From positions 512,001 to 576,000 of the forward strand of contig CAVWVI010000004.1 in assembly GCA_963758495.1 (NCBI GenBank): 64,000 nucleotides of DNA, in the 5' to 3' direction. The position numbers were made by a program, and so were the translations under genes. Source of the DNA: Oligoflexia bacterium. Its GTDB lineage: Bacteria; Bdellovibrionota; UBA1018. Shown one piece after another: positions 42,168 to 45,560 of this stretch; within the stretch, counting starts at the first letter, position 1; every line of letters starts with the position of its first letter. The notes beneath the pieces were generated by a model. That model was not told the DNA's origin, did no database searches, and was given only the letters and a program-made list of their open reading frames with translations.

Positions 42168-42887
42168 GTGTCAATTGCGGTTCTCAGGTGCCTACTCTGG
42201 TTTATGCCCTACTCTACTGCAATCCCCTGCTGGGCTGATGAAATACAACCTAAAGGCACCAACGCTTACCAAATCGTTACAGGGGATGACTCTGAAGGTG
42301 ACCGCCGGCACTGGGACAAGCTTTTCAACACCCGAGCGTACATCTATGGAAAAGAGCCCTCCCCTTTCCTCAAGGACCACATTTCCTTACTGCTACGAAC
42401 CCCCTCTTCCCAGCCTTTTTTGATGCGTAATCGCCACGCGGCCGATATTGCTATGGGCGAAGGAAGAAATGCTGTCTTCTTGGCAAAAATGGGATTTTCA
42501 GTGGATGGCGTTGATATCTCTGAAGTCGCTCTTCGTAAAGCCAAGCATCTGGCTCATGAAAATGGAGTCACCCTCAATACGGTCATCGCGGATTTGAATC
42601 ACTACAAACTGAAACCAGAATTTTACCACGTCATTGTGAATATTGACTACCTTCAGAGGAACCTCATTCCCCAAATCAAACGTGGCCTTAAAAAACAAGG
42701 GATCGTTATTTATGAAAACTACACCCTCGACCAGCTCAATAATGTAGGTGGCCAATACCTCAGTAGAGATTCATTACTCAACAAAGGGGAGCTCAAAGAG
42801 CTATTTAAAGACTTTCAGATTTTAGTTTATCGAGAATCCAATGATGGAACGAATGCAAAAGCGAGTATCATTGCGAGAAAGCCTTAA
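42168..42887 (+). CDS. Class I SAM-dependent methyltransferase (TehB-like)
   Basis: YGKEPS, DIAMGEGRNA, GVDIS; start uncertain (GTG 42168 or ATG 42204; 42030 overlaps tatA). Confidence 0.85.
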   Translation: MSIAVLRCLLWFMPYSTAIPCWADEIQPKGTNAYQIVTGDDSEGDRRHWDKLFNTRAYIYGKEPSPFLKDHISLLLRTPSSQPFLMRNRHAADIAMGEGRNAVFLAKMGFSVDGVDISEVALRKAKHLAHENGVTLNTVIADLNHYKLKPEFYHVIVNIDYLQRNLIPQIKRGLKKQGIVIYENYTLDQLNNVGGQYLSRDSLLNKGELKELFKDFQILVYRESNDGTNAKASIIARKP

Positions 42888-43849
42888 CCTTTAAATCGAT
42901 ACTGAGTGGTTGCTTGAGTTCCTGTCTTAATCAATTTCTTTTCTGAAACTCCTAGCGCGAGATCCCGGCTTGCAGTTGCAGTCGAAATAGTCTTAAAGAA
43001 CTGAAGGTAATCTTTGCGAGAAAATTCACGTCGCTTAAATTCCATCTGAGCCAGCTCAAGTCGGGATTGAGGCGTCTCTGAATCTGGCTTGAGCTGATCC
43101 AAGAAGTCTTTGAGAGCATCTCGAATCGTTCCCAGTGAGAACTCAATAAAATCAGTTGAATCTCCTTTTTTGTCACACCGCTCAAGGATTGAATAATAAG
43201 ACTCTTGTCGATCTTTAATTAAAGACTCAACAGGAAGATATTCGAACACGCCCTGGTATTTCGTTAAAATCAGAGACTGCCAAAAGCGACCTATCCGTCC
43301 ATTTCCATCTGAAAACGGATGGATAAATTCCAACTCATAGTGAAATACACAGGCAAGAATGAGAGGAGACAACTCTTTCGCATTTTTTAAAAAGCTAAAA
43401 AGGTTATCCATCAGCTGAGGCACTTGCTTTGCGGGAGGTGCGAGATGAGATACCTTTTGACCTTTGAGTATCCCCACCGCTCCAAGACGGTATTTCCCAG
43501 CGTTCGGAATCAGATCTTTCATCAGAACACCATGTGCCCACAATAAATCCTTCTCTTTGATCGGATTCAACTCATAAAGCGATTCATAAAGCCTGATCGT
43601 ATTTTGAACTTCACCTATATCCCGCTTTGGGCCCTTGACTCGCTTACCTCCGAAAATCGCTGTAACCTGCTCTAGATCGAGAGTATTCCCTTCGATCGCA
43701 AGACTATCCTTGATCGTTCTCACTCGATTTTGACGTCTGAGCTTGGGCTGAGGAACTGGCGCGTGAAATCCTTCATACTTGCCCAGCAAATGACTCACTT
43801 CAGAAACAAGATTAAGAATCTTAGGCGTGAGGATAAAAGGAGGGTACAT
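42884..43849 (-). CDS. Fic family protein with C-terminal wHTH
   Basis: SLAIEGN inhibitory motif, HPFSDGNGRIGR, ISTATASRDL. Confidence 0.93.
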   Translation of the reverse strand: MYPPFILTPKILNLVSEVSHLLGKYEGFHAPVPQPKLRRQNRVRTIKDSLAIEGNTLDLEQVTAIFGGKRVKGPKRDIGEVQNTIRLYESLYELNPIKEKDLLWAHGVLMKDLIPNAGKYRLGAVGILKGQKVSHLAPPAKQVPQLMDNLFSFLKNAKELSPLILACVFHYELEFIHPFSDGNGRIGRFWQSLILTKYQGVFEYLPVESLIKDRQESYYSILERCDKKGDSTDFIEFSLGTIRDALKDFLDQLKPDSETPQSRLELAQMEFKRREFSRKDYLQFFKTISTATASRDLALGVSEKKLIKTGTQATTQYRFKG

Positions 43850-43910: not shown

Positions 43911-44112
43911 GCCTTTACCAAATAAATCAGACTTATTTTTAATCACCTCGTTGAAGCTTCTTTGACGAACTAACACCCACTCCAGGGTTGTTTCACGTTC
44001 ACTCGTTCCCGTTCCCCTACGCCTCCGGCTACGGGGCGATCCACCGTACCGTGAACGTGACATTGAAGAAATCCATGGAAAGATTATATTTTTTATTTTT
44101 TGGAATATTTTA
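43911..44112 (-). repeat. Left long inverted repeat of the HNH element
   Basis: Reverse complement matches 45243-45433; 43919-43994 vs 45349-45424 is 71/76 identical. Confidence 0.92.
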
Positions 44113-44165
44113 AAATATAATTTTTCGATCAAAATACCTCGTAAATTCACATTATTTTATATATT

Positions 44166-45191
44166 ATGCCTCTATCTATGATTACTTTTATTGAAGACGT
44201 TTCGGTTCTCTCAGATAAAGAATTGCTCAGCTACTCTGTAAAACTTGCTCAGCATGAAAAAGAAATTGGATTACAAATTATCATCTGTTTGCGAGAAGCC
44301 GAGAGACGAATGCTCTATTGTCAATTGGGAATGAATTCATTGTGGGAGTTTGCAACTCAACATTTGGGTCTCAGTAGCGGAAACGCACAAATGAAGATTG
44401 ATGCGATGCGCCTATCTAGAGACAATCCTATTGCACAGGAAAAAATTAAAACCGGAGAACTAAGCCTCGTAAACGCGGCAAAAGTGAATAGTTTTTTTAG
44501 ACAAGAAAAGAAGGCAGGTCATATCTATACGCCGGAACAAAAGGCAGAAGTCATTGAAAGCGTTTTGGATCTGTCTCAAAGTAAATGCGAACGGGCATTG
44601 TTGGCACGAGCTCCAGAATCTATTCCTGCAGAAAAAATTCGCCCACTGACAGAAACAAAAACAGAAGTCAAAATTGTAGTGAATCAAGAAACGATGGCTA
44701 TCTTGAAACGATTAAAAGATCTGTTGTCCAACAGGATGCCTAATGCAACCTACGCAGACCTTTTGGATTATCTCGCACGAGAAAAAGTGGAAGTTTTAGA
44801 AAAGAAACAGATGGGAGTCACGCTGGAAGAACTTGAGTGCGTTTCCACCGCTACAGGTGAGGTAACTCCAGCTAATATCACGTCTATAAAGATGGAGATG
44901 GAAATAGAAGCAGGTCCACCCCACAACGCACCCACACCTCGCAAGTACATTTCGGTTGAAGACCGTAGGTGGGCTATGAGAAGGGCTGGAGGACAATGTG
45001 AACATGTTTCTTCGAATGGGCGCCGTTGTACCAATAGACGACAACTTCAGCTAGATCACAAAATTCCTCTGGCACTTGGGGGCACGAACGAGCGCTCAAA
45101 TTATCGGATTGCGTGCAGAGCCTGTAATATATTTTATGCAAAAATGCATTTGGGTGAAGTCATGAATAAATACGTTCCCAGCTTGAATTAG
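44166..45191 (+). CDS. HNH endonuclease with a long helical N-terminal domain
   Basis: C-terminal RAGGQCE..C..LQLDHKIPLALGGTNERSNYRIACRACN. Confidence 0.9.
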   Translation: MPLSMITFIEDVSVLSDKELLSYSVKLAQHEKEIGLQIIICLREAERRMLYCQLGMNSLWEFATQHLGLSSGNAQMKIDAMRLSRDNPIAQEKIKTGELSLVNAAKVNSFFRQEKKAGHIYTPEQKAEVIESVLDLSQSKCERALLARAPESIPAEKIRPLTETKTEVKIVVNQETMAILKRLKDLLSNRMPNATYADLLDYLAREKVEVLEKKQMGVTLEELECVSTATGEVTPANITSIKMEMEIEAGPPHNAPTPRKYISVEDRRWAMRRAGGQCEHVSSNGRRCTNRRQLQLDHKIPLALGGTNERSNYRIACRACNIFYAKMHLGEVMNKYVPSLN

Positions 45192-45242
45192 GATACTTGT
45201 AGTCCACCTGCATGATAACAAGATAAAGATGGGCTTTTCTAG

Positions 45243-45433
45243 TAAAAATATTTCAAAAAATAAAAATATATTCTTCCCATGAATTTCTTCATGATCTTGT
45301 TTACGGTACGGCAACGCCGGCGCGGCCTGGACGGCCGCGAGTAAACAAGAAACAACCATGGAGTGGGCGTTAGTTCGTCAAAAAAGCTTCAACGAGATGA
45401 TTAAAAATAAGTCTGATTTGTTTGATAAAAGGC
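45243..45433 (+). repeat. Right long inverted repeat of the HNH element
   Basis: Partner of 43911-44112; stem TCTTGTTTAC/GTAAACAAGA encloses GCAA-loop and CGCGGCC/GGCCGCG hairpins. Confidence 0.92.
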
Positions 45434-45560
45434 TGGAGATGGTTCGGAAGGAGATCCTAGGTGAACTCCAGGAAAAATCCAAAGTATTATCTGAATAACT
45501 CAATCAAACCATTACTGTGAGATGAATGAGTATTTAAATTTGATCGAAGTGAATCAATAT

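What the first reader, a model, noticed from the sequence alone, without database searches (positions are those of the whole stretch)
43993..45350. Covarying stem enclosing a swappable hairpin insert inside both HNH-flanking repeats
Seen: the left copy has a perfect 10-bp stem TCACGTTCAC (43993-44002) / GTGAACGTGA (44051-44060). The right copy has TCTTGTTTAC (45295-45304) / GTAAACAAGA (45341-45350) at the homologous position. Three positions differ and all three are compensated. Read outward from the gene, both stems are followed by GGTACGG...CGCC, then unrelated GC-rich hairpins (CCCCGTAGCCGGAGGCGTAGGGG versus CGCGGCCTGGACGGCCGCG). The right copy also has a GCAA (GNRA) loop. Inference: selection acts on secondary structure, giving a conserved scaffold with a variable module. 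It could be an ncRNA or an ssDNA recognition hairpin; the inner hairpins look REP-like.
Basis: partly seen in the sequence, partly recalled or inferred. Interest (0 to 1): 0.8.

Follow-up and report, generated by a model that had tools for sequence, protein, structure and literature searches.

The report
Branched DNA repeat flanking HNH genes
The two stems are one helix of a roughly 100-letter branched repeat that flanks this nuclease gene in inverted orientation and recurs in related bacteria, changing its letters while keeping its base pairing; it likely folds as single-stranded DNA and likely marks the ends of a small mobile unit.

Summary
The stems are real and 3 of 3 differences are compensated. 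They are helix P1 of a ~100-nt repeat inside ~200-bp inverted arms around a DUF222-like HNH gene. A covariance model found 8 copies in this genome, all within 400 nt of HNH-family genes, and 55 hits in 13 genomes (20 of 21 pairs doubly changed; score 0.63, shuffles 0.15). The fold is a three-way junction (P1, optional P2, P3) plus a hairpin P4 with an AA/GC bulge. It is strand-specific (G·A 72, T·C 2), favours C-GNA-G triloops, and has about 2% G·T pairs; this points to ssDNA. No Rfam match. Copies form head-to-head doublets and lie beside HNH, RAYT-like Y1, TnpB and tyrosine-recombinase-like genes, in frame inside HNH genes, or alone. The right inner hairpin is the conserved P3; the left copy is the aberrant one. 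Best reading: a REPIN-like ssDNA end of a mobile unit. The enzyme is unresolved: Y1 in trans is slightly favoured over the HNH protein, although no RAYT-like Y1 was found in this genome.

The parts
43914..44111 (-). Left arm of the inverted repeat, read outward from the HNH gene: AT tract, pyrimidine tract, structured core, AT-rich outer tail
   Evidence: CM hit 43963-44085
44051..44060 (-). Left copy, helix P1 5' strand
44003..44050 (-). Left copy, interior of P1: GGTA linker, then an aberrant module in place of canonical P2/P3 (GC-rich hairpin at 44014-44036, unique in the genome)
43993..44002 (-). Left copy, helix P1 3' strand
43970..43990 (-). Left copy, hairpin P4 (C-AA-CC...GG-GT-G variant) and GTTAG foot motif
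44166..45191 (+). 341-aa HNH-family gene (P0001): predicted ParB/KorB-like helical domain, beta-alpha-alpha segment, disordered linker, C-terminal HNH with CxxC; DUF222-like by an atlas lead
45245..45429 (+). Right arm of the inverted repeat, read outward
   Evidence: CM hit 45270-45380
45295..45350 (+). Right copy three-way junction: P1 45295-45304 with 45341-45350; P2 45309-45319 (AAC triloop); P3 45321-45339 (TGGAC loop)
45353..45373 (+). Right copy hairpin P4 with AA/GC 2x2 bulge, and GTTAG foot motif

Best explanation
The stems belong to a strand-asymmetric, branched repeat family that occurs as inverted pairs, here enclosing an HNH gene; it likely folds as single-stranded DNA and likely serves as the recognition end of a REPIN-like mobile unit that a RAYT-like HUH (Y1) transposase would cut and rejoin in trans, with the HNH gene probably carried as cargo. 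Shown: covarying P1-P2-P3 junction plus P4; strand asymmetry; doublets; association with mobile-type genes; recent multiplication in G001 and G320. Inferred: folding as DNA on the strand read outward; shape-based recognition of P3/P4 and the GNYAG foot, leaving the P1 sequence and P2 free to vary; mobility by ssDNA cleavage and rejoining; identity of the enzyme. I put the ssDNA mobile-end part at about 0.7 and Y1 as the enzyme at about 0.55 given that.
For: Covariation: 20 of 21 pairs changed on both sides, score 0.626 against 0.154 shuffled and at most 0.09 slid (similar). Strand asymmetry: G·A/A·G 72 vs T·C 2, G·T 21 vs A·C 9 of 1024 cells; outward strand more stable in 44 of 52. P2 loops: C-GNA-G triloops in 16 of 32 distinct auto-parsed hairpins, no GNRA or UNCG. 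GNA mini-hairpins are very stable in DNA, and the RNA counterpart quoted is much less stable (PMC13037366 passages). P4 has an AA/GC bulge, and its S pair is complementary in 26 of 27 distinct parses; E. coli REPs carry a conserved AA-GC bulge needed for TnpA-REP activity (PMC8266576 passages). Head-to-head doublets occur in G000, G001, G236 and G243, as for REPINs. Copies lie directly upstream of RAYT-like Y1 genes at 4 loci in G001, plus one remnant, and 1 locus in G003. Y1-family genes were found in most repeat-bearing genomes tested. Repeat-linked HNH proteins are scattered on the tree (8 changes, at least 4 forced; quick tree), as expected of cargo. Stand-alone copies exist, also in G243, which has no HNH-family match. 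One filled/empty pair: a 90-102 nt in-frame indel ends exactly before the GTCAG foot.
Against: No RAYT-like Y1 was found in this genome (92% complete); the only Y1 is an IS200 TnpA nested in one element. None was found in G101 or G072 with this query either. All 8 copies here lie 37-397 nt from HNH-family genes, which favours an HNH link. 0 of 33 and 0 of 10 other Y1 loci carry the repeat. The Y1 family is in 24 of 41 family genomes and in only 4 of the 7 with the repeat in that sample, so no enrichment. No GTAG/GTGG/CGTC foot (2 of 52). The Y1 genes score far below the NF047646 cut-off. The filled/empty pair is one event and, with L267 as outgroup, looks like a loss. Alignments were fitted to the model and many copies are near-identical kin. 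No biochemical or expression data.
Confidence: 0.42

Rival explanations
1. The repeat is the cognate end or origin of the HNH element itself. The predicted ParB-like domain would bind the arm, the HNH domain would nick, and host strand-displacement synthesis would release a folded ssDNA that is reinserted. The repeat and different HNH lineages would exchange ends.
For: 8 of 8 copies in this genome are next to HNH genes, while only 0.5% of the genome lies within 500 nt of one. HNH adjacency recurs in G001, G113 and G320, and in frame in G236. In G320, 9 near-identical copies (90-100%) were found; the arm's outer end is identical in the 8 anchored copies and one fragment, the inner end varies, and 2 copies lead into an HNH N-terminus. 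The model shows a DNA-binding-like domain plus an intact-looking HNH motif.
Against: The HNH family is very large (4095 representatives at 1e-30) and multiplies without the repeat: 0 of 86 and 0 of 20 loci, including 59-62% identical relatives. The link is polyphyletic. G243 has doublets but no HNH match. HNH nucleases have no known rejoining step (recalled).
Confidence: 0.27
2. The repeat is a structured RNA transcribed outward from the gene: either a guide scaffold for the HNH nuclease that reads into flanking DNA, or a CsrA-type GGA-loop regulator.
For: Two nGGAn loops per copy resemble Csr/Rsm sites (recalled). The outward strand also folds better with RNA parameters (41 of 52). Bioinformatics cannot reliably separate ssDNA from RNA motifs (PMC5737381 passages).
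Against: About 2% G·T pairs, GNA triloops and no GNRA or UNCG loops. Orientation relative to neighbouring genes is inconsistent. The GGA of P4 is lost or changed in several copies. No outward promoter-like site or terminator at the arms. No Rfam match. The protein lacks IscB features beyond the HNH part (21 bits vs cut-off 175).
Confidence: 0.14
3. The repeat is mainly a landing pad: a REP-like element whose doublet centre or flanks attract unrelated mobile genes. Part of its covariation would come from template-switch correction of palindromes rather than selection.
For: Neighbours include HNH, Y1, TnpB, an rve_3 integrase-core gene, a group II intron and a tyrosine-recombinase-like gene. The same IS-like end abuts the AT-rich centre in several G001 copies. 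Watson-Crick pairing is near perfect in P1.
Against: Conserved non-Watson-Crick features (tandem G·A, AA/GC, GNA loops) would be erased by palindrome correction (inference). This genome has no free copies. It does not explain how the repeat itself spreads.
Confidence: 0.11
4. The repeat is an unusual attC-like folded ssDNA recombination site for a tyrosine recombinase that inverts or excises the enclosed gene.
For: In G101 two outward copies (94% identical over 157 nt) start at the stop codons of a tyrosine-recombinase-like gene and its partner. Shape-based, strand-specific recognition is an attC trait.
Against: attC R boxes in 0 of 52. Copies are inverted, not in tandem arrays. The recombinase link was seen in one genome only, and Pfam and PDB sequence searches did not confirm the family.
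Confidence: 0.06

Closest known systems
REP / BIME / REPIN repeats and REPtrons (RAYT, TnpA-REP)
   Same: Strand-specific imperfect hairpins; AA-GC bulge as in E. coli group 2 REPs; inverted homo- and heterodimers; placement beside Y1 genes; occasional insertion inside genes.
   Different: About 100 nt and branched rather than a 20-40 nt hairpin; no GTAG/GTGG/CGTC foot; 1-24 detected copies per genome; most often beside an HNH gene; the associated Y1 family is multi-copy and below the RAYT cut-off.
TnpA-Y1 subclass 2.6 and class 3 'atypical secondary structures' (Quentin 2018, PMC6006769)
   Same: Non-canonical structured flanks next to Y1 genes that resemble both IS and REPtron.
   Different: Reported mainly from Bacteroidetes, Planctomycetes, Acidobacteria and Proteobacteria; class 3 has a CnGA foot; 'Bdellovibrio' does not occur in the main text. 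I did not see their supplementary table of structures.
Integron attC sites
   Same: Structure conserved over sequence, variable interior, one active strand.
   Different: No R boxes (0 of 52), inverted rather than tandem, branched.
OMEGA IscB / HEARO
   Same: An HNH-containing protein next to a structured non-coding element.
   Different: Only the HNH part matches NF040563; no Rfam match; the repeat is optional and often points away from the gene.
DUF222-HNH (13E12 repeat family) proteins
   Same: Multi-copy genes with a helical N-terminus and C-terminal HNH; DUF222 atlas lead; weak Pfam DUF222 hit in one paralogue (E 0.009).
   Different: No Pfam DUF222 hit for P0001. The 5 papers listed with DUF222 and HNH showed no such flanking repeat in title or abstract start (listing only). 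The link of DUF222 to the 13E12 family is recalled.

Membership tests
REP/REPIN (RAYT system) | 20-40 nt hairpin with a GTAG/GTGG/CGTC foot 0-2 nt 5' of the stem | tested here: not met
   foot before P1 in 2 of 52; complementary foot after P4 in 0 of 52; core ~100 nt and branched
REP/REPIN (RAYT system) | Inverted doublets | tested here: met
   G000 C3:177992-178257; G001 L060, L065, L067, L069, L070, L079; by eye in G236 and G243
REP/REPIN (RAYT system) | Flanking a cognate RAYT/TnpA-REP gene | tested here: inconclusive
   upstream of RAYT-like Y1 genes in G001 and G003 (NF047646 22-29 bits, cut-off 80); none at 43 other Y1 loci; no such gene found in G000
REP/REPIN (RAYT system) | Strand-specific stem irregularity (AA-GC bulge of group 2 REPs) | tested here: met
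   P4 pattern CAA-S-C...G-S-GCG in 35 of 52 copies; strand asymmetry
REP/REPIN (RAYT system) | Cleavage of the ssDNA at C|T by the HUH enzyme | not testable with these tools
   only a lead: GNYAG foot in 38 of 41 parsed copies places a CT on the complementary strand
Integron attC | RYYYAAC and GTTRRRY boxes at the ends | tested here: not met
   0 of 52
Integron attC | Direct-orientation sites separating gene cassettes | tested here: not met
   inverted pairs or single copies, mixed orientation to neighbours
TIR insertion sequence / MITE | Terminal inverted repeats | tested here: met
   window arms 79% over 198 nt; also the C1 element and G101
TIR insertion sequence / MITE | Target-site duplication | tested here: inconclusive
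   only 5-6 nt matches near uncertain ends for two elements; none evident by eye in G320
TIR insertion sequence / MITE | DDE transposase between the repeats | tested here: not met
   the enclosed gene is HNH
OMEGA IscB/HEARO | IscB architecture and an upstream omega RNA | tested here: not met
   NF040563 21 bits vs 175, HNH part only; no Rfam hit
Csr/Rsm sRNA | Multiple GGA hairpin loops on an expressed RNA | tested here: inconclusive
   two nGGAn loops per copy, variable in P4; expression untested
Intrinsic terminator | GC hairpin followed by a T run | tested here: not met
   T run after P4 in 3 of 52; scan finds none at the arms
DUF222-HNH protein family (P0001) | DUF222 N-terminal domain plus HNH | tested here: inconclusive
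   HNH met; DUF222 only as an atlas lead (12% of cluster members) and a weak hit in a paralogue

The most novel reading that the evidence does not exclude
A class of mobile element in which a DUF222-like HNH nuclease, not an HUH or DDE enzyme, spreads genes bounded by branched single-stranded DNA ends; the ends also multiply as REPIN-like doublets and are exchanged between HNH lineages.
Probability: 0.22. Interest if true: 0.88.

Novelty: new variant of a known kind. Interest (0 to 1): 0.62.

Why it matters
Natural ssDNA signals more complex than a hairpin are described as rare (PMC5737381). This one has a covarying three-way junction plus a REP-like bulged hairpin and occurs across more than one class of a phylum. 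It gives a defined ~100-nt substrate for two open questions: how REP-like repeats spread, and how the large multi-copy DUF222-like HNH family (up to 74 matches in one genome) moves without a recognised transposase. A simple in vitro test can separate the Y1 and HNH models.

Tried and rejected
Rfam at gathering threshold on the window (tRNA only) and by E-value on 10 loci (nothing over the repeats). Viral contigs: no relative. Metagenome scan: 2 close HNH relatives, neither with the repeat. Strict pattern scan of all GTDB genomes: 7 loci, 5 in two known relatives and 2 chance hits in coding DNA. Sequencing runs: no RNA holder listed; the one DNA run barely covered the locus and was uninformative. 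Inner hairpins as independent REP families: rejected. GNRA loop: rejected. Terminator and promoter scan: nothing at the arms beyond chance-level sites. Target-site duplications: not convincing. Fold search: no Foldseek match at E 0.001; VIA-align Z up to 7.6 for HNH and 6.8 for ParB/KorB-like domains, in the range where common folds appear. The careful tree did not finish; the quick tree was used. Weak CM hits treated as doubtful: L076, L229, L230. Three rows dropped before counts on A6: a reverse-strand shadow (L088), a truncated copy (L070) and L076. Earlier-findings look-ups returned nothing. Paper searches: none found; listings without a matching description.

Full report
Observation. Both stems are present as described. 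They sit at homologous positions in ~200-bp imperfect inverted arms (43914-44111 and 45245-45429; 79% identical) around a 341-aa ORF with a C-terminal HNH domain. Three positions differ per strand and all are compensated. One such stem is unremarkable (718 in the genome), so the case rests on further copies. The right copy folds well (z about -4) into P1 enclosing two hairpins; the left folds weakly (z about -2) apart from P1. The claimed GCAA tetraloop is better read as a 4-bp stem with an AAC triloop.

The repeat family. Iterative search gave 8 copies in this genome. A covariance model from them hit 10 of 116 genomes of the order. A refined model hit 7 of 41 family genomes, 4 of 151 phylum genomes and 8 of 151 genomes in the class of G236 (a few are weak). 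These searches score only a capped number of candidates per genome, so misses are not absences. The lineage is probably Bdellovibrionota: the nearest atlas clusters are mostly from it, and one relative's record is titled Bacteriovoracaceae. On 55 hits from 13 genomes, 20 of 21 model pairs show double changes; the covariation score is 0.626 against 0.154 for shuffles and under 0.09 for slid controls. The alignment was fitted to the model and many G001 copies are near-identical, so these figures overstate independence; the MAFFT-only alignment of the 8 local copies gave the same picture.

Anatomy, read outward from the gene. An AT tract and a pyrimidine tract precede P1 (10 bp, nearly free in sequence). 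Inside P1 are a short linker, an optional P2, and P3 (7 bp, often with tandem G·A/A·G, loop mostly nGGAn). After P1 come P4 (C-AA-S-C-loop-G-S-GC-G) and a GNYAG foot (38 of 41 parsed). P2 is missing in one G001 subtype, and extra hairpins are inserted after P3 or in P4 in others. The window's right copy is canonical and close to the copy beside its nearest paralogue (81% over 166 nt). The left copy has lost canonical P2/P3, and its inner hairpin occurs nowhere else. Its P1 core resembles that of the C1 element's copies, so the three compensations may partly reflect a swap of the whole P1 domain (inference).

DNA or RNA. On 52 kept rows, G·A mismatches outnumber T·C 72 to 2 and G·T outnumber A·C 21 to 9, so the structure works on one strand; G·T is only 21 of 1024 cells. 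P2 loops are C-closed GNA triloops in 16 of 32 distinct auto-parsed hairpins, with no GNRA or UNCG; some parses were wrong. GNA mini-hairpins are very stable in DNA and the quoted RNA counterpart much less so (PMC13037366, passages). The AA/GC bulge of P4 matches in type the bulge that TnpA-REP needs in E. coli REPs (PMC8266576, passages). Rfam has no match, and no terminator or consistent gene orientation was found. I read this as ssDNA at about 0.7. Weinberg et al. warn that the two cannot be told apart reliably by computation (PMC5737381, passages), and no RNA run was available.

Context. In this genome all 8 copies lie 37-397 nt from HNH-family genes (0.5% of the genome is that close). Two elements have the form arm-gene-arm; one of them is interrupted by an IS605-type element and a group II RT. 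One head-to-head doublet lies upstream of a gene, and two copies are single arms. G001 has 24 hits: doublets or single copies upstream of 4 HNH genes and 4 RAYT-like Y1 genes, and many at contig ends. G113 has one upstream of an HNH gene. G236 has three in frame in HNH linkers and three intergenic. G320 has 9 near-identical copies; the arm's outer end is the same in the 8 anchored copies, and two copies run into an HNH N-terminus. G101 has an outward pair around a tyrosine-recombinase-like gene. G096 has one upstream of a TnpB-like gene. G243 has doublets and no HNH match. An orthologous HNH gene in G313 lacks the in-frame copy, and the 90-102 nt gap ends exactly before the GTCAG foot; an outgroup keeps a decayed copy, so this is probably a loss, and it is one event.

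Against an obligatory partner. No repeat was found at 86 and 20 further HNH loci or at 33 and 10 further Y1 loci. Repeat-linked HNH proteins fall in several clades (12 of 78 rows; 8 changes, at least 4 forced; quick tree). The Y1 family is in 24 of 41 family genomes and was not found in this genome.

The protein. AlphaFold (pLDDT 85, pTM 0.53) gives a helical domain with modest similarity to ParB/KorB DNA-binding domains (Z up to 6.8), a beta-alpha-alpha segment, a disordered linker and an HNH domain closest to phage HNH nucleases (Z up to 7.6). These Z values are only suggestive. It is not IscB. The family is large and multi-copy (32 of 41 relatives).

Mechanism. Most likely the outward strand folds when exposed as ssDNA; an enzyme reads P3, P4 and the foot by shape; inverted pairs move as a REPIN-like unit, empty or with cargo. 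I favour a RAYT-like Y1 in trans because HUH enzymes cut and rejoin folded ssDNA and because the HNH link is polyphyletic. The margin over the HNH model is small, since this genome has no such Y1 and has no free copies. Confidence: Y1-driven ssDNA end 0.42, HNH-driven 0.27, RNA 0.14, landing pad 0.11, attC-like 0.06.

Comparison and novelty. It works like REP/REPIN ends but fails the defining foot and size, so I do not file it as a REP; it is not attC, an IS with a DDE transposase, or OMEGA. Papers seen: PMC6006769 (part 2 of 10 and passages); PMC8266576, PMC13037366, PMC5737381, PMC8632094, PMC3733652 and PMC3116915 (passages); others as search listings only. Searches found no paper; others listed none describing this repeat by title or abstract start. 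Subscription journals and supplements were not covered. Verdict: a real, apparently undescribed structured repeat family; a new variant of the REP/REPIN kind with an unexplained tie to HNH genes; interest 0.62.

Noticed in passing
G000:C1:199460-200431 and C1:253813-254784 (L039, L040): Two HNH elements 99.3% identical over 1590 nt, bounded by short inverted repeats unrelated to this family; a sign of recent mobility, with no consistent target duplication.
   Followed up: partly
G000:C4:117546-118556 and C3:276714-277076 (L037, L038): A third HNH subfamily with its own ~200-bp inverted arms; the second copy is 93% identical and truncated.
   Followed up: partly
G000:C1:323258-328977 (L035): Nested element: arm-HNH-arm, with the HNH gene interrupted by an IS605-type TnpA/TnpB pair that itself holds a group II-type reverse transcriptase ORF.
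   Followed up: partly
G017 loci L137-L152; G039 loci L157-L167; G000 HNH genes: HNH paralogues share only ~100-200 nt upstream, often starting at TTGAC about 185-250 nt before the start (7 of 9 G000 genes), and several G017 copies are followed by short tandem repeats; a possible conserved left end.
   Followed up: partly
L122:1459-4800 (G101:C128): Outward repeat pair around a 324-aa unknown ORF and a 581-aa tyrosine-recombinase-like ORF with no Pfam hit; an 88% identical second copy on another contig.
   Followed up: partly
L093, L095, L121 (G236); L117 (G072): Repeat lies in frame in intact HNH linkers, with P1 and P3 pairing kept, and overlaps the 3' end of an integrase-core transposase ORF.
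   Followed up: yes
L066, L068, L081, L083, L089, L105 (G001): The same IS-like end abuts the AT-rich side of five copies at contig breaks, and another sequence truncates the copy in L105, suggesting insertion into doublet centres.
   Followed up: no
L096-L107, L197-L223: A multi-copy RAYT-like Y1 family (NVGNHLHLL motif; up to 19 matches per genome; 24 of 41 family genomes) below the NCBIfam RAYT cut-off, mostly without recognisable flanking repeats.
   Followed up: partly
window 42884-43849 (-): A Fic/DOC-family gene lies just outside the left arm.
   Followed up: no
window 45359-45499 (+): A short ORF of about 46 codons starts inside P4 of the right arm (read by eye); probably chance.
   Followed up: no
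G000:C3:177524-180435: Three similar ~124-141 aa ORFs flank the doublet and HNH gene at this locus; no Pfam family for the two scanned.
   Followed up: no
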